A stretch of DNA of 64,000 nucleotides from an uncultured Methanoregulaceae archaeon (GTDB taxonomy: Archaea; Halobacteriota; Methanomicrobia; Methanomicrobiales; Methanospirillaceae): NCBI GenBank assembly GCA_963717525.1, contig OY970343.1, positions 544,001 through 608,000 of the forward strand, given 5' to 3'. Shown in pieces: positions 20,006 through 29,038 of this stretch. A program made the translations under genes and the position numbers. Under the pieces are notes generated by a model. That model worked only from the letters and a program-made list of their open reading frames with translations. It had not been told where the DNA came from and did not search any database. Position 1 is the first letter of the stretch, and every line of letters begins with the position of its first letter.

Positions 20006-20992
20006 TTACCGGTATTTTTCCTGTTCCAGCATCGTATCGGCAAGAACAAGCGCGAGCATCGCCTCTGCCACCGGGAGGATACGGGGCACGATGCAGGGGT
20101 CGTGCCGGCCGCCGACCGTGATCTCCACGGCGTTCCCGTGGATGTCCCGCGTCTGCTGGACCTTTGCGATGGAGGGCGTCGGTTTTACCGCAATGCGCAC
20201 GACGATATCCTGCCCGGAGGAGATCCCGCCGAGGATACCGCCCGCGTGATTGCTTTTAAAACCGGTGGCGGTCATCGGGTCATTGTTCTCGCTTCCGAAC
20301 CTCCCTGCGACCGCAAACCCGTCGCCGATCTCCACGCCCTTGACTGCACCGATCCCCATCATGGCGCCGGCAATTGCCGCATCAAGTTTCCCGAAGACCG
20401 GGTCGCCGAGGCCTGCCGGGCAGCCGGTTGCGATAATCTCCGCGATCCCGCCGACAGAGTCCCCGGCCGCCTTTGCCGCGAGGATCTCCTGTTCGATCTC
20501 CTTTGGTACGGTTTTGCCATGCACGGACATGATCCGGCCGGTGATAGCGATCCCCCGTCCGGCAAGGTACTTCAGTGCCACGGCGCCGGCCGCAACCCGG
20601 CCGACAGTCTCCCTGCCCGAGCTCCTGCCACCCCCCCGGTAATCCCGGATACCATACTTTTCCTGGTACGTGAAATCCGCGTGACCGGGCCGGAACTTCT
20701 CTTTGATCGCCTCGTAATCCTTCGACTGCGTATCCCTGTTTCTCACCAGCAGCGCTATGGGTGCGCCGGTCGTCATCCCTTCGAACACACCCGAGAGGAT
20801 CTCGACCGTGTCGGCCTCATCCCGCGCGGATGTCAGAGAAGATGTGCCCGGCCGCCTTCGGTCGAGCAGCGGCTGGATATCAGCCGCCGTTAATGCGAGC
20901 CGGGCCGGGCACCCGTCGATGACCGCGCCCACGGCCGGGCCGTGGCTCTCTCCAAAGGTCGTGACTGCAAAATTCCTGCCAAAGGTGTTCAT
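20006..20992 (-). CDS. aroC: Chorismate synthase
   Basis: [24 protein letters not shown] and GRHDPC motifs. Confidence 0.96.
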
Positions 20993-22377
20993 GCCAGTAT
21001 CTCCCGTATGACGGTATCGGGCACGTCAATCCCGAAGAAGAGCCGGAACTGCTCCCGTGCTTGGTGGATAAAAACCTCGGTACCGATAATGGTTGCGCAG
21101 CCGGCTTTCCGTGCTGCGGTGATCAGGGGTGTGACCGGGGGTGTGTACACAAGATCAAATACGGTCATCTCCTTCTTGAGCTGATCGTCCCGGAGCGGGC
21201 TTTTCGTGTCCGGCTGCATGCCAACCGGTGTGGCGTTCACAACAAGGTCAGGGTTTGTCCGGTCAAAGTCGTCCCATGCGCCCCACCGGCAGCCGGACCG
21301 CTCCGCGAGCGCCCGTGCCTTCTCCGGCGTCCGGTTCAGGATGGTGACCTCCATGCCGAGATCCATAAGGGCATACGCGGCCGCTGCTGCAACCCCACCA
21401 GCGCCGAGCAGTACCGCACGGGCACCTTTGTGGCCGGCGAGGGGTTTTTTGATGCCCAGCCAGTCCGTGTTACAGCCGTATGCTTCCCCGCAGGCGAAGA
21501 CCACCGTGTTTATTGCACCGATCTGCCTGGCCGCGTCATCGATCTCGTCAAGGCAGGCCATCACGTCCTGCTTGAAAGGGATGGTTACCGAGAGCCCTTT
21601 CGCATCGATGCTGCGGGCAGTCTCCATGATGGCGCTGATTGACGGGTCCTCGAACCGGGTGTAGTGGCAGTCGAGCTGGTATTTCTCAAAGAGCCGGTTG
21701 AAGAGGAGCGGGCTCCTGCTGTGGCCGCAGGGCCAGCCGGCAACTCCGAGGAACCGGGTCCGGGGATCATGGCCGGGACCGGTGAGCAGGGACTGCAGCT
21801 GTTCGCGTTCAGGTGCCGGGAGGGGGGTTGCCGCAAACCACTTTGCTGCTGCCTCCCGGACCGGGGCAGGGATCGTCCCGTGTTCCAGCAGGCCGAGGAT
21901 CCGGCCGGCCGCCTCTTCGTTTGTGGTCCGGCTGGTATCCACGCAGAAGTCTGCCGCTGCGGCATAGTTGTGGCGCCGGCGGGCGATCACCTCTGCGATC
22001 TCCTGATCCGCAGGAAGGCTGGTGAGAGGCGGGCGGGGGGCCCGGGCGAGCCTGCGCCTGATGGTCGCGATCTCTGCGGTCAGCAGCACACAGGTACTTT
22101 GTGCCCTGAGGTGCTCCATGTTTTTAGGGTCCATGACCACGCCGCCCCCGGTGCCGATCACGATGTCACGGGCAGGGAGCCCGGCGATCGCCTCACGTTC
22201 CAGCGTACGGAAGCGCTCCTCATCGTCCTTCCTGAAGATCTCCGGGATCGTGCGACCGCTCTGCTGTTCGATAAGTGCATCGGTATCGAGGAAGGGTACA
22301 CCCAGCCTGCGGGCGAGCACCGTCCCGATGGCGGTCTTGCCGGTCCCGCGGTAGCCGAAGAGCACGATCCGCCTCAT
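20989..22377 (-). CDS. aroK-aroE: Shikimate kinase (P-loop type) fused to shikimate dehydrogenase
   Basis: N-terminal [11 protein letters not shown] and GTGGG; C-terminal HSRSP, SVTIPFK, NTD, GAGG and NATPVG; one continuous frame. Confidence 0.9.
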
Positions 22378-23639
22378 TCCATCACCCCGGCAAGTGCGTC
22401 CCAGAAACCGGGATAGGATTTGGCGACGCATTCCGCGCCGGTGATCGAGACCCCGCCGATCCCGAGACCAAGGACGGCAAAGCTCATCGCCATGCGATGG
22501 TCGTTTGCCGGGTCGATGGTGCCGCCATGGAGCAGGGCCGGCTGGATGATGATCCGGTCTTCATGGGTATTTACCGTCGCGCCAAGCTGCCGGAGTCGTT
22601 CCGCGGTAACGGCAATGCGGTCGCTCTCCTTGTACTTCAGGTGGCCGATGCCGGTGATCACCGAGGGGGTCTTTGCCACCGCTGCCACCATGCAGAGCGT
22701 CTGGACCGTGTCGGGAGCCGAGGACATGTCGATGGTGATCCCGGCAAGCTGCCCATCGTGTTCGATCATGACACTGTCATGGGCATAGGTCACCTGGCAG
22801 CCCATCCTCACGAGTGCAGAAAGGAAGAACCGGTCGCCCTGCACGGAGTCCGGGGTGAGGCCGGTCACCGTCACTCTGCCGCCACAGATAGCCGCGAGCG
22901 CAAAGAAGTACGAGGCCGACGAGTAGTCCCCTTCGATGACGTACGTGCGGCCGGTGTAATGGTTGCAGGTGCTAACCTCGAACCTCCGGTATCCTTCGCG
23001 CCGGATAACCGCCCCAAAACCGGTCATGACACCGGTCGTGATGTCGAGGTACGACTGAGATGCGGGAGTTCCCGTGATCTCTAATGAGACCGGGTTTTTC
23101 GCGTAGGGGGCGGCCATCAGGACCGAGGATGCGAACTGGCTGCTCACCGATCCGTCTATCGTGGCGCTGCCGCCACGGAGATTGCCGCCGATCGTTACCG
23201 GGGGGAACCCGGGCTTTTTTGGAAACCTGATCTCCCCCCCGAGGACTGTAAGCGTGTCGGCAAGCGGCCCGACCGGCCGCTCCTGCATCCGGGCGCTGCC
23301 GGTGAGAGTGACCGGGTGATCCGCGAGGAGCGCGGAGGAGGCGAGCAGGCGCAGGGAGGTGCCGGAGTTATTAAGGTCAAGCACCGTGCCCGGGGGGCAG
23401 GTGAATGCCCCGTCACATCCTTCCACGATCACACTCCGGTCATTGGTTTTTATATCGGTGCCAATCTTTTCAAGGGCGGCGATCGTGAGTTGTGTGTCGT
23501 CGGCCATGAGCGGGTTGACGATGGTACTTGTGCCCTGTGCGAGTGCTGCCGCGATGAGGGCACGGTGCGTGTAACTCTTGGAGGGCGGGGCAGCGACCGT
23601 AAGGTCGATACCGCGCCGCAGGGGGAGGGTGACGATCAT
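22374..23639 (-). CDS. aroA: EPSP synthase
   Basis: PPSKSYTHR, NSGTSLR, SSQF, KESDR and DHRMAM motifs. Confidence 0.95.
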   Translation of the reverse strand: MIVTLPLRRGIDLTVAAPPSKSYTHRALIAAALAQGTSTIVNPLMADDTQLTIAALEKIGTDIKTNDRSVIVEGCDGAFTCPPGTVLDLNNSGTSLRLLASSALLADHPVTLTGSARMQERPVGPLADTLTVLGGEIRFPKKPGFPPVTIGGNLRGGSATIDGSVSSQFASSVLMAAPYAKNPVSLEITGTPASQSYLDITTGVMTGFGAVIRREGYRRFEVSTCNHYTGRTYVIEGDYSSASYFFALAAICGGRVTVTGLTPDSVQGDRFFLSALVRMGCQVTYAHDSVMIEHDGQLAGITIDMSSAPDTVQTLCMVAAVAKTPSVITGIGHLKYKESDRIAVTAERLRQLGATVNTHEDRIIIQPALLHGGTIDPANDHRMAMSFAVLGLGIGGVSITGAECVAKSYPGFWDALAGVME

Positions 23640-24430
23640 GGCGGCACCCTGATTTCCGGGTAGCATCCCAGGTTACGGACCGTGGTGATCTCTTTTAGTT
23701 CCCGGAGCGCCTCGTCCGTGCACCCGCTGACCGCGTAGTCAAGGAAAAAGACATATTTTCCCATGCCCCTTTTTGACGGCCTTGACTCGATCCGGGTGAG
23801 GTTGATCTTCTTCCTGGCAAAGACGCCAAGAAGGTCGTAGAGCAGACCGGCCCGGTCGGTGTCGGTGTCGATCAGGATGCTGCACTTTCCCGCCCGGCAG
23901 TCCGGGACGGATGTCTGCGAGATCCTCACAAACCGGGTCGTGTTCTCCGGGTTGTTCTCCACATGTTCAACGATCACCGGGATGTGGTAGATAGCGGCTG
24001 CCGAGACCGAGAGGATCGCCCCGGCGTTCGGGGTCTTTTTGGCCTCGATCGCGCTCGACGCGTTGCTGCTCGTATGGATCACCGGCACCTCCCGCCACTG
24101 CTCGATCCACCCGCTGCACTGCTCGTGGGTCTGCGGGTGAGCGTAGATCACGCGGATCTTTTCGAGCGGGACAAGGGAAGCGAGGCTATGGTGGATAGGC
24201 ATGTACATCTCCGCGGTGATCGAGAGGGGGTATTTGGTCAGGCCGTCAAGGGTCTCGCCCACCCCGCCGGCCTCGGAGTTCTCGATCGGGACGATGCCAT
24301 CTCCCCGCCCGGCTGCTACGCCCGCAAAGATGCTGTGGATGGTCGGCTCGAGAATAACGGGTTCGCACCCGAGCCGGAGCGCGAGCTCGTGGGAGAACGT
24401 CCCTTCGGGGCCGAGGGTGATGACGGTCAT
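23636..24430 (-). CDS. pheA: Prephenate dehydratase with ACT domain
   Basis: LGPEGTFS, VPIENS, NTTRF and NLTRIESRP motifs. Confidence 0.94.
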   Translation of the reverse strand: MTVITLGPEGTFSHELALRLGCEPVILEPTIHSIFAGVAAGRGDGIVPIENSEAGGVGETLDGLTKYPLSITAEMYMPIHHSLASLVPLEKIRVIYAHPQTHEQCSGWIEQWREVPVIHTSSNASSAIEAKKTPNAGAILSVSAAAIYHIPVIVEHVENNPENTTRFVRISQTSVPDCRAGKCSILIDTDTDRAGLLYDLLGVFARKKINLTRIESRPSKRGMGKYVFFLDYAVSGCTDEALRELKEITTVRNLGCYPEIRVPP

Positions 24431-25251
24431 TTCTTCACCATGCACTCTATCAAAGCGTCGGTGAGCTCCAGCCCGCGTTCGCAGTAGGTGCCGAGATGCC
24501 GGGTGTCGCGGGAGAAGAATTCGGCAAACGCTGCAGGATCACCGCCCTGGACGATCTCCGAGAGTTCCCCGGCTGCCGACCGGCACGCAGCGAGCACCCC
24601 GGGCACAAACGGGTTTTCCTGGAGTATATCGGCATAGAGCGCCGGGTCCTGAGAGAGAGCCGGCCTACGAGCGAGAGCTCGATCTGGTACACCGGGCTCA
24701 TGAACGGTCCGGTCTTCCCTATGTCAATGCCCAGCCGTGCGGATGGAGTCAGCCATGCATATCGTGACAAAGTGGGTGAGCCCCTGGACGATGGCCATCA
24801 TCCGGTCGTGCTCCTCCGGTGTTGCGATCGTGCAGACGGCCCCCTCGTGCAGGAAGATTCCCCTGAGGTCGGAAAGCATCGTCCCGGTTATCCGCGCCGG
24901 GCACATGATGATGGTCTGGCGTGCAATGGACGAGAGCGTCGGCCCGAACATCGGGTGGAGCCCGATGACCTGAGCCTCCGACTTAAGCATCGCCGCGACG
25001 GGGGCTACCTTGAGCGAGGTAAAATCGCAGAGAACCTGGTCTTTTCCGAGGAGCGGTGCGATCTCACCGATGACCCGCACGGTGTCGCGGATGGGCACAG
25101 AGACAATGACGAGATCGCAGGTCTCTGCGATGTCAGCATTCGTTACCGCTGTCGAACGCCCCGAGACTATCATCTCGTAGCCCGCCCGCTCAAAGACCGG
25201 GGCGAAGAGCTTTCCCATCTTCCCGGTGCCGCCGATGATGCCTGCCTTCAT
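24427..25251 (-). CDS. tyrA: Prephenate dehydrogenase (frameshifts in the 3' third)
   Basis: GIIGGTGKMG, DFTSLK, HPMFGP and EHDRMMAIVQGLTH motifs; TGA overlaps the pheA ATG. Confidence 0.88.
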
Positions 25252-25253
25252 GT

Positions 25254-26241
25254 TCACTTCTCGCGTATCGTCTCTTTGACCGGCATGCCAAAGTGCCTGC
25301 CGCCTTCGAGCGCACAGCCGAGGATCGTATGTCCCGGCGCAAGGTTCACGACCGAGATCGCACTCCCGTCGGGAGCCACGAGCCGGATCGTCTCTGCGTT
25401 CTGGAGGATCAGGCTCGCCTTGGCCCCTCCTCCCTCTGCCTCGACAAGGAGCAGTGGCCGGCGCTCGATTTTCGTCCTGCCTACAATAGCGGAACGGGCG
25501 GTGCCCCGGTGGTCGGCCACCAGCACCTGCCCCCCGATGGAGAGATCGGAGAGGTACGCGGTCTTCCCGTCAGGCATCAGGATGTATGCATGCACCGCGC
25601 CGGCGTTCACCCGGAACGGGCGGGGCGCGACGTACGGGTTTTCGAGCGTTTCGGCATGCACGAGGAGCATGGCAGACGAGGTGTTCCCCATCAGCATGCC
25701 GTCGCCATCGGCAAGCATCGAGCAGGTGTCCACGCAGACCCGGTCGCCCATGCCTACGGGCTGGATCTTTGTGACCGTGAAGGGTATGAGCTGCACGCTT
25801 CCGGAGGCGTTTTTTATGAGCGCCGCGACCGCCTTTACGACTGCGGGGTCTGTGGTTTTGAGGAGGATCCCGAACACGCCTTTTTCAAGAACGTGGAGAG
25901 CGAGCTCCGCCTCGTGAACGTTCTTTACGGCCGCGACGATCTTGTCCGACTGCGCGACCAGGTTTTCGAGCGGGATGACCGTCCAGTCGCTTGTCGTGAC
26001 GATGACGATCCGGTTCTTACCCTTCTGTGCCGCCTCGTTCTCGCTTGCCTTGTCGGTGATCGTGCACTCGATCACGTCTTTGCCCGGGAATGCGGTCGCC
26101 GTCAGGTGCGACGGTTGTTATCCGCCCGAGTCTTTTAACATCCCCGGCCCGGTCAGCCACGACCGCATCCGCACCGCTCTCGATGGCGGTCGTCACGATC
26201 TCCTTGTTCCACGGCCGGGCATCCACCCAGAACTGCTTCAT
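25254..26241 (-). CDS. aroB': 3-dehydroquinate synthase II, archaeal (frameshift near 26085)
   Basis: DWTVIPLENL, GDRVCVDTC, RPFRVNAGAVHAY and LQNAETIRL motifs. Confidence 0.92.
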
Positions 26242-27024
26242 TTATTGCTTCTCCAGCGCTTTCTTCGGGTCGACGTTGTGGTGGACAACGCGGCAGATAG
26301 ACTGGACAAAGGCCCGGGTATTGTCGCGCTGGAAGGCGTTCCTCCCCATGCAGACCCCGGCACCCCCGGCTGCGATCGATTCGCGGATCATCTCGAGCGA
26401 TTCAAGGTCGCTGCACTTCTCGCCGCCGGCGACAAAGACCGGCACCGAGCAGGCTTTCGTGATCCGGGCAAAGGCCTCGGCACTTCCCGGGTAACTGGTC
26501 TTTATCATGTCAGCGCCGAGCTCTTCTGCCACCCTGACGCACTGCCCGATGGTCTGGGGCGAGGTGGGGTCGATGCCCTTGCCCCGCGGGTAGATCATGA
26601 CCAGGAGCGGCATGCCCCAGCGGTTGCAGTCCCGGGCGATCTTCGCGCCGGACTCGAGCATCTTCGATTCGTTCGGGGCCCCGAGGTTGATGTGGATGGA
26701 GACCGCGTCGGCGCCAAGCGCGATGGCCTCTTCTACGGTGCAGACGAGGACCTTGTCGTTCGGGTCCGGGTTGAGCGAGGTGCTGCCCGAGAGGTGCACG
26801 AAAAGCCCGATGTCCCGGCCGTGCCGCCGGTGTCCTCTCTTGACCATGCCCTTGTGGAGGACGATTGCATTTGCCCCGCCCTCGCTCACATCAGTGATGA
26901 CTTTTGTCATGTCCAGGAGGCCGTCAATCTGGCCCATGGAAAACCCGTGGTCCATGGGAATTATCACGGCCCTCCCTGTGTTCCTGTCGATAATCCGTTC
27001 GATCCTGATATCCTTTCCAATCAT
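26242..27024 (-). CDS. aroA': DhnA-type class I aldolase, ADH synthase family, paralog 2
   Basis: PMDHG, HLSGST, YPRG, ADMIKT (Schiff-base Lys) and GRNAFQ motifs. Confidence 0.85.
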   Translation of the reverse strand: MIGKDIRIERIIDRNTGRAVIIPMDHGFSMGQIDGLLDMTKVITDVSEGGANAIVLHKGMVKRGHRRHGRDIGLFVHLSGSTSLNPDPNDKVLVCTVEEAIALGADAVSIHINLGAPNESKMLESGAKIARDCNRWGMPLLVMIYPRGKGIDPTSPQTIGQCVRVAEELGADMIKTSYPGSAEAFARITKACSVPVFVAGGEKCSDLESLEMIRESIAAGGAGVCMGRNAFQRDNTRAFVQSICRVVHHNVDPKKALEKQ

Positions 27025-27034
27025 GATTTCAACC

Positions 27035-27826
27035 TTATCCATTGAGAATCTTCAGCGCCTCTTCGACGCTCTTGTTCTGGTGCACGATACACGCTGCTGC
27101 CCGGACGAACTTGTCCGGCATCCGGTGCTGGAAGGCGTTCCGGCCGATCGAGATCCCGGCCGCACCGCCCGCCATCGCGCCTTCAATCAGTTCCAATGTT
27201 GTGCGGTCATCCGTCTTTGAACCTCCGGCGACCACGACCGGCACCGGGCAGCCCCGGGTCACTTCGCGGAAGGACTCGGGATCCCCGGTGTACACGGTTT
27301 TCACGATATCGGCCCCGAGCTCGGCTGCCACCCGTGCGGCGAGCTTCACCTGCTCGACATCGTTCTCCTTCTTGATATCTTTGCCCCGCGGGTACATCAT
27401 CGCGAGGAGCGGCATCCCCCATTCCATGCACTCGACCGCCACGTGCCCGAGGTCCTGGAGCATCCGCGCCTCGGACCCGGCCCCGATATTGACGTGCATC
27501 GAGACCGCGTCGGCGCCCATCTTCAGCGCGTTTGTCACCGAGTTTACGAGCACCTTCTCGTTCGGGTCCGGCCCAAGCGAGGTGGATGCCGACAGGTGCA
27601 GGATGAGCCCGATGTCGCGGCCACCCTGCCGGTGGCCGAAGAGGGCGAGACCCACGTGGCCGATCACCGCGTTTGCCCCGCCGTCCGCGACCAGGTTCAC
27701 GGTCTGGCCCATGTCGATCAGGCCGGGGATCGGCCCGTTCGACACCCCGTGATCCATCGGTACGATGACGGTCTTTTTCGTATTACGGTTCATGATTCTT
27801 TCCAGACGAATTTCTTTACCTCTCAT
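27035..27826 (-). CDS. aroA': DhnA-type class I aldolase, ADH synthase family, paralog 1
   Basis: PMDHG, HLSAST, YPRG, ADIVKT and GRNAFQ motifs; first gene of the operon, with GGAG SD. Confidence 0.87.
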
Positions 27827-27876
27827 AACAACAACTCCCCCTCCAGCCCTGATACAACAACCAGACGTGAAGGGAA

Positions 27877-28041
27877 TTACCGGTACCGGGGATAATACCC
27901 GAAACCGAAAAAGCCAAAAAAGCCAGAAACGCGATAGCCGATGCTTCTCGCGTTTACGCTTTCAGAAACGGCATTACTGATGCTAAAGATGGGTGCTGCG
28001 CTTTCAGAGATAAAGACATTCACGAGGGAAAAAACCCTCAC
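27877..28041 (-). CDS. Candidate Phe/Tyr-rich leader peptide of the aro operon (54 aa from GTG; may start at ATG 28066 with a +1 shift)
   Basis: [54 protein letters not shown]; stop is 50 nt before the aroA' ATG. Confidence 0.7.
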
Positions 28042-28088
28042 GGGCGCTGTTGCACTCTTCCTGCATGATTATTGGTTGGAGCCGGGGG

Positions 28089-28095
28089 TATATAA
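28089..28095 (-). promoter_or_regulatory. Putative TATA box of the leader/aro operon transcript
   Basis: TTATATA on the minus strand, ending 22 nt before ATG 28066. Confidence 0.65.
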
Positions 28096-28261
28096 TTGTG
28101 CGTGCTAAGGAGTAGCATGGTGGGGGGAACCGGCCCATTTTATGGGCCAATCTCTCTTTTTCATATGAATCTCAAAATTTTCATTAGAATGTGAATAGCA
28201 TTATTAAATTATAATATTATCAAGTAAAATTTTGATTCAAAATCAAAACCAATTAAACAGA

Positions 28262-29038
28262 TTATAGATCTTTCCTTTTACTCCAAAGAAATTTGGCCAA
28301 TTGAATTCTTCCTTTATTTTTTGAATAATCCGACATATATATCGGTACCATTCGTATCATCTTTTCAAGTATTCTATAGAAAAATTTTTCAGAAATCGAT
28401 TTGATTATTAATAAAAATAAAAATCCCTTGAAAGTTTCATCTGGCCTAGAACATATTGAAGAATCCCAAATAAACAATCCAATTATTGTATCCTTTTTCT
28501 TATCAAAACCCAAGTCACTTAAATCTTCAACATTGATAAATAAATTTTCCATCATTTTTTTTAATAATTCTGCATTTAAAGACAGATAATACAGAATTAA
28601 ATTAAAAACAGCTGCAATAATACAGAAAATTGCTGAAGTATATGACATCAATTCAGAGAGATGAAAATAAAATGATCCTATGGAAATAATGAATAATGCA
28701 GGAATTATGCCTAAAGTAAATATTGCATCAAAATAACCAAAAATACTGCCAGAAATTTCTATGGATTTTCTCAGTCTAATTAAATGAGGTAATGATTTTT
28801 TTTGGGGATCAAATTTTTTTATATAATCTCCGCATTCAAAAATTTTACGATAATAGTCGTAATTCGAAGGAGATTTGTATTGCTGTTTTAGAGATTGTGG
28901 GGCTTTTAAAACAATGTTGGAGTATAATCGAATAAAATCTGCTCTAACGTTTAATTTCTCTTCAATTCGAAAAATAAAATTACATAGGTATCGATTTAGA
29001 CGATTAGTACAACTATCACAGTTGGTGTTATAGTCCAT
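28262..29038 (-). CDS. AT-rich orphan membrane protein (2 predicted TM helices)
   Basis: Intact 258-aa ORF in a markedly AT-rich stretch. Confidence 0.65.
   Translation of the reverse strand: MDYNTNCDSCTNRLNRYLCNFIFRIEEKLNVRADFIRLYSNIVLKAPQSLKQQYKSPSNYDYYRKIFECGDYIKKFDPQKKSLPHLIRLRKSIEISGSIFGYFDAIFTLGIIPALFIISIGSFYFHLSELMSYTSAIFCIIAAVFNLILYYLSLNAELLKKMMENLFINVEDLSDLGFDKKKDTIIGLFIWDSSICSRPDETFKGFLFLLIIKSISEKFFYRILEKMIRMVPIYMSDYSKNKGRIQLAKFLWSKRKDL

What the first reader, a model, noticed from the sequence alone, without database searches (positions are those of the whole stretch)
27877..28066. Phe/Tyr-rich leader peptide ahead of the aromatic amino acid operon: candidate archaeal attenuator
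Seen: between a TATA box (28089-28095, minus strand) and aroA' (ATG 27826) lies an ORF absent from the ORF track. It reads [54 protein letters not shown] (28041-27877). Eight of the last 14 residues are Phe (5) or Tyr (3), there is no Trp, and it stops 50 nt before the operon. The operon holds the shikimate genes plus pheA and tyrA but no trp genes, so the codon bias matches its end products. Established: bacterial pheL/trpL leaders sense charged tRNA through clustered control codons, and transcription and translation are coupled in archaea. To my knowledge, leader-peptide attenuation is not well established experimentally in archaea. Inference: this is a ribosome-stalling sensor for Phe-tRNA and Tyr-tRNA controlling the whole operon.
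Basis: partly seen in the sequence, partly recalled or inferred. Interest (0 to 1): 0.93.

Follow-up and report, generated by a model that had tools for sequence, protein, structure and literature searches.

The report
Frameshift-gated archaeal amino-acid-sensing leader
In many methane-making archaea the aromatic amino acid genes are preceded by a conserved short leader that probably switches them on when ribosomes run short of Phe or Tyr, and the ribosome seems to enter that leader by slipping one base at a 'hungry' codon, a sensing trick that recurs at isoleucine, leucine and cysteine genes.

Summary
The ORF is real and conserved. All 107 usable aroA' upstream regions from the order (Methanomicrobiales) hold an ORF ending in an F/Y/W cluster (53% of the last 16 codons), usually followed at once by a hairpin that reaches the aroA' ribosome-binding region. 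An ATG at the inferred transcription start (28066) opens a 20-codon uORF with two RF2-like sites, YTT-TTY (Phe) and YTT-TAY (Tyr), and stops just after them; the cluster ORF lies in its +1 frame (97 of 107 loci; in frame in 9). The same design sits at a cimA-like gene (Ile codon), a leuA-like gene (Leu codon, four synonyms) and an HTH regulator beside cysteine genes (Cys codon). There the protein itself is in the +1 frame, often with no standard start codon. Best reading: a starvation-driven +1 frameshift gates entry, then stalling on the cluster turns the operon on. Main rival: initiation at a conserved GTG/ATG (94 of 94). 'No Trp' does not generalise (Trp in 67 of 107). No translation or regulation data; not found in ten literature searches.

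The parts
28103..28117 (.). Palindrome TGCTA-N5-TAGCA just upstream of the TATA box; candidate transcription-factor operator (a separate layer of control)
   Evidence: present in 35 of 39 long-uORF loci; a similar palindrome lies before another aroA' paralogue in family f14. Function inferred.
28088..28095 (-). TATA box; places the transcription start at or next to the ATG at 28066 (leaderless mRNA, inferred)
   Evidence: the best TATA 8-mer starts 30-33 nt before the uORF ATG in 90 of 94 homologues, scanning 15-60 nt
28004..28066 (-). Zero-frame uORF, 20 codons ([20 protein letters not shown], stop TGA 28006-28004)
   Evidence: the stop lies 1-2 codons after the Tyr codon in 87 of 94 homologues
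28028..28042 (-). Candidate +1 shift site 1: SD-like bases, P-site TTT (28033-28031), A-site TTC Phe (28030-28028). Also holds the rival start GTG 28041-28039.
   Evidence: P-site codon TTT 79, CTT 15 of 94 (not required by the search pattern); GTG 73 or ATG 21 of 94 in the +1 frame
28010..28024 (-). Candidate +1 shift site 2: GTGA, P-site CTT (28015-28013), A-site TAT Tyr (28012-28010)
   Evidence: P-site codon CTT 48, TTT 44, CGT 2 of 94; locus L082 lacks one T here and is in frame
   Evidence: the +1 frame is open from site 2 to an F/Y/W cluster in 94 of 94
27880..27921 (-). Phe/Tyr control-codon cluster, also U-rich (runs of T at 27921 and 27912)
   Evidence: homologues: TTT 330 vs TTC 145, TAT 299 vs TAC 62; last F/Y/W within one codon of the stop in 101 of 107
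27837..27876 (-). Hairpin starting right after the leader stop; its 3' arm holds the GGAGG of aroA'
   Evidence: -18.4 kcal/mol; spacer z below -2 in 61 of 107 and below -1 in 86 of 107; covariation weak
27035..27826 (-). aroA' (ADH synthase), first gene of the operon
   Evidence: NCBIfam NF005556 and TIGR01949 above cut-off
20006..27042 (-). Rest of the operon: second ADH synthase, DHQ synthase II, tyrA, pheA, aroA, aroK-aroE fusion, aroC
   Evidence: tyrA and pheA score below their curated cut-offs; tyrA and aroB' carry frame breaks in this assembly

Best explanation
A two-step ribosome sensor of charged aromatic tRNAs. The ribosome starts at the ATG at the 5' end of the mRNA. With plenty of Phe and Tyr it reads both sites in frame, stops after 20 codons and leaves; the U-rich leader stays bare and the hairpin covers the aroA' ribosome-binding region, so the operon is off (blocked initiation, aCPSF1/FttA termination, or both). 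When Phe-tRNA or Tyr-tRNA is scarce the ribosome waits with the hungry codon in the A site, the P-site tRNA slips from CUU/UUU to UUU (+1), the ribosome enters the leader ORF, stalls along the F/Y(/W) cluster, shields the U tracts and loosens the hairpin: the operon is on. Shown: sequence anatomy, conservation, the match between codon and pathway at four loci. Inferred: transcription start, translation, the shift, its dependence on starvation, and the output step (hairpin versus termination not resolved).
For: (1) P-site codons are YTT in 94 of 94 (site 1) and 92 of 94 (site 2), never TTC or CTN otherwise; the matching wobble positions of the +1 frame hold only T or C, while neighbouring wobble positions take purines (54 distinct haplotypes). 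CUU_U and UUU_U are the RF2 shift sites (PMC5009743). (2) In 9 of 107 loci the TATA-linked ATG is in frame with the cluster; L082 keeps the uORF start of its relative L012 but lacks one T at site 2; 9 of 9 loci of one paralogue in family f14 (another class) have in-frame F/W/Y leaders. (3) Matched controls: cimA-like gene before ilvB, TTT-ATY (Ile) in 33 of 34 loci; leuA-like gene, NTT + Leu in 36 of 37; enzyme in the +1 frame, with no ATG/GTG/TTG at or upstream of the site in 11 of 33 and 16 of 36. Outside the order, with a rule blind to the A-site codon: Ile in 10 of 10 sites found (20 loci), Leu in 14 of 15 (20 loci) as TTA, CTA, CTC or CTT. HTH gene beside tRNA-Cys and Cys/Met genes: YTT-TGY (Cys) in 9 of 9 close homologues. 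(4) Sign logic: a stall on a hungry codon would block a start codon under the ribosome, the wrong sign for biosynthesis; a shift gives the right sign. (5) T-run lengths of 2-7 are too short for polymerase slippage at most sites (established knowledge). (6) aCPSF1 is in the genome; at least two U4 tracts in 86 of 107 clusters.
Against: A GTG or ATG sits at a fixed place in the +1 frame in 94 of 94 aro leaders, with GTG-ATG exchange, as a start codon would. Two thirds of cimA-like (22 of 33) and 20 of 36 leuA-like loci also have a standard start in the enzyme frame at or upstream of the site; M. mazei MM_1284 is annotated from an in-frame ATG upstream of its site. Other families use ATT or GTT in the P site, which re-pair less well. 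The SD-like GGTGA ends 4 nt before the P codon, within the 4-6 nt range used for initiation in this genome, not clearly compressed. Hairpin covariation is weak (one two-sided pair in each of three groups); the first helix ends more than 30 nt from the ATG in 10 of 107; a ribosome stalled inside the cluster lowers the opening cost by only 1-4 kcal/mol of about 15. Three of 73 further loci have a broken or deleted cluster. The A-site Phe/Tyr and Ile/Leu were part of the search patterns; the rule was written. Loci are related, not independent. No footprint, peptide or reporter data.
Confidence: 0.62

Rival explanations
1. One reading: the leader ORF is a control-codon attenuator but starts at its own GTG/ATG (28041 or 28023), de novo or by termination-reinitiation after the uORF; no frameshift.
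For: GTG/ATG at the first place in 94 of 94, GTG at the second in 87 of 94; synonymous change in the +1 frame across the overlap; termination-reinitiation is shown in H. volcanii for 1- and 4-nt overlaps and short gaps (PMC6728339, passages).
Against: The starts lie about 20 and 38 nt upstream of the uORF stop here; in 55 of 94 loci the first GTG is 7 nt from the 5' ATG, with no room for an SD; 7 of 94 lack the second GTG. Many cimA/leuA/HTH loci with the same motif have no standard start. It does not explain the YTT restriction or the pathway-matched A-site codon, and a stall in the uORF would cut expression on starvation.
Confidence: 0.2
2. The +1 shift is real but runs at a fixed rate (or responds to general tRNA state); only the cluster senses amino acids.
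For: Ty1-type CUU sites shift at a set rate on slowly read codons (PMC5009743); the A-site codons are the less used synonyms in this genome (ATT, CTT, TAT).
Against: The A-site amino acid changes with the pathway (Phe/Tyr, Ile, Leu, Cys) and is kept through four Leu synonyms.
Confidence: 0.08
3. RNA-only element: the F/Y codons are a by-product of a U-rich terminator, read by aCPSF1 or an RNA-binding protein; translation is incidental.
For: F/Y codons end in T 551 to 180, while other T/C-ending codons in the cluster end in C 310 to 142; U4 tracts set aCPSF1 efficacy (review PMC13675443).
Against: TAC, TTC and TGG are common; the cluster keeps one frame over 24 different linker lengths and ends within one codon of a stop in 101 of 107.
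Confidence: 0.05
4. The ORF encodes a small trans-acting peptide with an aromatic (membrane-binding) tail.
For: Conserved N-terminal VFSPVNVFI-like stretch and aromatic C-terminus.
Against: Linker free in length and sequence; the in-frame leaders share only the tail; no Pfam match; position locked to the hairpin.
Confidence: 0.04

Closest known systems
Bacterial leader-peptide attenuators pheL/trpL (established knowledge)
   Same: Short ORF before a biosynthetic operon with clustered codons for the end products.
   Different: Archaeal; 48-62 codons or more; cluster at the C-terminus; no antiterminator/terminator pair or U tail after the hairpin seen; entry appears to need a +1 shift. The shift at the end of E. 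coli pheL is described as incidental (PMC5009743).
Mycobacterial leaderless polycysteine sORF attenuators (bioRxiv 10.1101/834739; abstract and section 11 read)
   Same: Leaderless sORF, control-codon tract, stalled ribosome frees a sequestered ribosome-binding site.
   Different: No frameshift gate there; here aromatic residues, archaeal host, and the hairpin lies 3' of the stop.
RF2 (prfB) autoregulatory +1 frameshift (PMC5009743, passages)
   Same: Short zero-frame ORF, CUU_U or UUU_U site, SD-like bases just upstream, functional frame is +1, some lineages lose the need to shift.
   Different: The A site holds a sense codon for the pathway's product, not UGA; the sensed species would be aminoacyl-tRNA. 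The same review says of starvation-driven shifts giving useful products that no examples are known (2016).
Rho-dependent leader control such as tnaC (recalled) and aCPSF1/FttA U-tract termination (PMC13675443, PMC13681488, passages)
   Same: A ribosome on the leader could shield the termination factor's binding tract.
   Different: Stalling here would come from hungry codons; no conditional aCPSF1 attenuation was found in the searches.
Known archaeal frameshifts: Sulfolobus fucA1, haloviral G-T, Mg chelatase (PMC8211752, PMC3711429, passages)
   Same: Programmed frame change in archaea.
   Different: Those are -1 (one viral +1) and not tied to amino acid supply.

Membership tests
pheL/trpL-type transcription attenuator | Short ORF directly upstream of the biosynthetic operon | tested here: met
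   stop 32-127 nt before aroA' in 107 loci
pheL/trpL-type transcription attenuator | Clustered cognate codons, conserved with synonymous change | tested here: met
   907 of 1712 codons F/Y/W versus 7.9% in genes
pheL/trpL-type transcription attenuator | Mutually exclusive antiterminator and hairpin-plus-U-tail terminator | tested here: not met
   one hairpin after the stop, U-rich tract lies before it; no alternative fold seen (folds only, no exhaustive search)
pheL/trpL-type transcription attenuator | Read-through rises on starvation | not testable with these tools
   RNA runs were contigs only
Leaderless sORF translational attenuator (mycobacterial type) | Start codon at the 5' end of the mRNA | tested here: inconclusive
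   TATA spacing fits in 90 of 94; no mapped start
Leaderless sORF translational attenuator (mycobacterial type) | Structure that hides the downstream RBS and is opened by the stalled ribosome | tested here: inconclusive
   mean opening cost 15.2 kcal/mol bare, 11.2 with 3 nt past the stop masked, 7.8 with 9 nt; helix ends within 20 nt of the ATG in 86 of 107; covariation weak
RF2-type regulatory +1 frameshift | Short zero-frame ORF with the functional frame at +1 | tested here: met
RF2-type regulatory +1 frameshift | CUU_U or UUU_U shift site | tested here: met
   94 of 94 and 92 of 94 in the aro leader; UUU_A, YUU_C and NUU variants at the other genes
RF2-type regulatory +1 frameshift | SD 3 nt upstream of the site | tested here: inconclusive
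   16S tail GATCACCTCCT found; GTGAT/GGGAT ends 3 nt, GGTGA 4 nt, GAGG 2 nt before the P codon; initiation spacing for GGTGA is 4-6 nt
RF2-type regulatory +1 frameshift | Stop codon in the A site | tested here: not met
   sense codons Phe, Tyr, Ile, Leu, Cys; it works like RF2 but is not a member
RF2-type regulatory +1 frameshift | Trans-frame product measured | not testable with these tools
   no proteomic or footprint access
Rfam RNA families | Match above gathering score | tested here: not met
   one sub-threshold hit (E 0.16) upstream of the promoter

The most novel reading that the evidence does not exclude
Halobacteriota archaea run a general amino-acid-sensing system in which a hungry cognate codon triggers a programmed +1 frameshift, either straight into the enzyme or regulator (Ile, Leu, Cys) or into a control-codon leader that attenuates an operon (Phe, Tyr). 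It would be a first natural use of starvation-driven frameshifting as a nutrient sensor, a first leader-peptide attenuator in archaea, and would mean the true N-termini of these enzymes are mis-annotated across the phylum.
Probability: 0.6. Interest if true: 0.96.

Novelty: new variant of a known kind. Interest (0 to 1): 0.92.

Why it matters
How archaea match amino acid synthesis to supply beyond a few repressors is largely open, and coupling of transcription and translation has little functional proof there (PMC13681488). This leader gives a compact, conserved test case. The sister sites lie in genetically tractable hosts: M. mazei MM_0671 is annotated with a non-standard ATC start and MM_1284 carries the Leu site, so existing ribosome profiling and simple reporters can decide the matter. 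It would also fill the gap noted in the 2016 recoding review: no known useful product of hungry-codon frameshifting.

Tried and rejected
Rfam scan: nothing. Genome-wide scan for other control-codon leaders in G000: 52 hits, none other convincing by eye; a looser slippery-site scan was swamped by chance hits and its output was cut. A short MKSGWW ORF before trpE in G000 is not conserved in 25 further loci; rejected. No such leader or site was seen by eye before hisG, lysC-like, argB-like or the third HMGL gene (some of these are internal to operons whose first gene I did not inspect). The 12-nt motif alone is not diagnostic: 26 of 29 matches in three genomes lack the architecture. RNA runs for a relative's locus (L411) were contigs only; four were laid and cannot show starts, ends or levels. 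Fusion of the leader into aroA' rejected: the spacer length is not kept modulo 3. An assembly error as the cause of the +1 phase rejected: same phase in 97 loci, although this assembly has frame breaks elsewhere. NCBIfam and PDB searches could not tell CimA from LeuA. Genus g25 was not examined for the aro leader. Earlier scan notes: none.

Full report
Observation. The operon is aroA', aroA'2, aroB', tyrA, pheA, aroA, aroK-aroE, aroC. The closest named records are Methanoregula and Methanoregulaceae at 90-97% identity, so the window is inferred to be from Methanomicrobiales. In this genome alone the cluster is modest evidence (p about 5e-5, tied with two other segments).

Conservation. I examined 108 aroA' upstream regions: the top loci regions I picked for genus spread from the 150 listed matches. 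Eight loci were dropped beforehand (second paralogue, fragments, contig ends) and L046 is truncated, leaving 107. All 107 have an ORF ending 32-127 nt before aroA' with 4-13 F/Y/W in its last 16 codons; 907 of 1712 such codons are F, Y or W against 7.9% in G000 genes; Trp occurs in 67 of 107; the last F/Y/W lies within one codon of the stop in 101 of 107. A further 80 named loci, overlapping this set, gave 70 of the main type, 7 too short and 3 with a broken or deleted cluster. In family f14 (another class), 9 of 9 loci of one paralogue have an ATG-led in-frame F/W/Y leader, and the 19 loci of two other paralogues do not. None of 30 loci from the class of G303 shows one (30 of about 100 matches, orthology not established). 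Genus g25 was not sampled.

The missed front end. An ATG at 28066 lies 29-30 nt from the start of the TATA box. Choosing the ATG by TATA score alone gave, in nearly all displayed rows, an ATG whose frame is one base behind the cluster ORF (output partly cut). The TATA starts 30-33 nt before this ATG in 90 of 94 loci, so the mRNA is probably leaderless. The uORF holds two six-codon units ending in YTT-TTY and YTT-TAY. 94 loci fit a strict pattern (which required the Phe, the Tyr and a stop within 8 codons); three more have the same sites (L064, L065 with a later stop, L071); nine are in frame with no shift needed; L073 is unresolved. Not required by the pattern: the P-site codon is TTT or CTT in 94 of 94 at site 1 and 92 of 94 at site 2; the stop falls 1-2 codons after Tyr in 87 of 94; the +1 frame runs open into the cluster in 94 of 94 over 24 linker lengths. 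L082 matches the uORF of its relative L012 but lacks one T at site 2 and is in frame. Against a shift: GTG (73) or ATG (21) stands at one place in the +1 frame in all 94.

Matched controls elsewhere. In G000 two isopropylmalate/citramalate-synthase genes have the same design. The one that leads an operon with ilvB has TTT-ATY (Ile) in register in 33 of 34 loci; the other has NTT plus a Leu codon in 36 of 37 (these patterns included the A-site codon). The enzyme is in the +1 frame, and 11 of 33 and 16 of 36 have no ATG/GTG/TTG at or upstream of the site (three of the 11 have an ATG 4-5 codons downstream). In 40 loci from other families of the phylum, a rule blind to the A-site codon, written, found sites in 10 of 20 (all Ile) and 15 of 20 (14 Leu as TTA, CTA, CTC or CTT; 1 Ile); 18 of the 25 lack a standard start upstream; 15 loci have no site. 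An HTH gene next to tRNA-Cys, a SepSecS-like PLP enzyme and Cys/Met genes has YTT-TGY (Cys) in 9 of 9 close homologues, while 21 more distant paralogue loci have ordinary starts; the same Cys site occurs in G303. Calling the first gene cimA and the second leuA rests on the ilvB context and on recalled features of characterised enzymes; library searches did not separate them. In the M. mazei tables MM_0671 has an annotated ATC start and MM_1284 contains the Leu site but is annotated from an in-frame ATG.

Output step. A hairpin begins 0-7 nt after the leader stop (z below -2 in 61 of 107) and ends within 20 nt of the aroA' ATG in 86 of 107, more than 30 nt away in 10. The mean cost of opening the initiation region falls from 15.2 to 13.1 kcal/mol with the cluster masked to 9 nt before the end of the stop, 11.2 at 3 nt past it and 7.8 at 9 nt past it. 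Covariation is weak. The cluster favours TTT and TAT against the genome's bias, unlike its other codons, has two or more U4 tracts in 86 of 107, and aCPSF1 is present. So shielding of a U-rich termination signal and opening of the hairpin are both possible and have the same sign; I cannot rank them.

Mechanism. Most likely (0.62): fed ribosomes stop after the uORF and the operon stays off; starved ribosomes slip +1 at the hungry Phe or Tyr codon, stall along the cluster and turn it on. That the element is a translated amino-acid-sensing leader of some kind I put near 0.9. The main rival is initiation at the conserved GTG/ATG (0.2); termination-reinitiation is proven in archaea, for much shorter overlaps.

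Literature. Ten searches listed no paper on an archaeal leader-peptide attenuator or on this frameshift; most hits were seen as listings only, and subscription journals are missing. Passages read: PMC5009743 (first 300,000 of 449,034 characters held; RF2 site, 3-nt SD spacing, no known useful hungry-codon shift), PMC8211752, PMC8116511 (no mention of attenuation), PMC11456600 (supplements searched except files 5, 13, 14, and file 6 is cut, so an sORF entry could be missed), PMC7261190, PMC13675443, PMC13681488, PMC1854888, PMC3711429, PMC6728339, bioRxiv 10.1101/834739 (abstract and section 11; 79, 88). Recalled, not from a call: a putative Trp-codon leader was once proposed before the Thermococcus trp operon.

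Verdict. Real, conserved and more unusual than first read. It works like a leader attenuator gated by an RF2-like shift, but it is a member of neither family. Entirely comparative evidence; experiments are straightforward.

Noticed in passing
G000:C1:629570-631073 (+), loci L121, L162-L191: cimA-like gene before ilvB lies in the +1 frame of a short uORF with TTT-ATT (Ile); conserved across the order and in other classes.
   Followed up: yes
G000:C1:311167-309900 (-), loci L123, L192-L227: leuA-like gene in the +1 frame of a uORF with YTT + Leu codon; the G000 copy also has an internal frame break near 310711, probably an assembly error.
   Followed up: partly
G000:C1:114042-114330 (+), loci L410, L412-L419, L438, L450: Unannotated-looking 91-aa winged-HTH ORF in the +1 frame of a uORF with YTT-TGY (Cys), beside tRNA-Cys and Cys/Met genes; a conserved TTAACAATTGTGAA-like box lies upstream.
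   Followed up: partly
L252, L253, L264 (families f13, f24, f22): A variant site GAA ATT CTA/CTC (Leu) 30-34 codons upstream of the enzyme core, in frame +1 with it.
   Followed up: partly
window 28103-28117: TGCTA-N5-TAGCA palindrome next to the TATA box; similar palindromes near aroA' promoters in other genera and in family f14; candidate operator of an unknown regulator.
   Followed up: partly
G000:C1:1809930-1809950, loci L132-L161: Conserved palindromic TGTATAAATATGTACA box over the trpE promoter; suggests repressor control of trp genes rather than a leader.
   Followed up: no
window 26075-26240 and 24450-24770: aroB' and tyrA each carry a frame break in this assembly; likely indel errors, not compared with relatives.
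   Followed up: partly
window 28262-29038 (-): AT-rich 258-aa ORF upstream of the promoter with no Pfam match; looks foreign.
   Followed up: no
L421-L440: A paralogous small HTH gene family is preceded by a conserved ATGTTAAC-N3-TTAAC repeat, possibly its own binding site.
   Followed up: no
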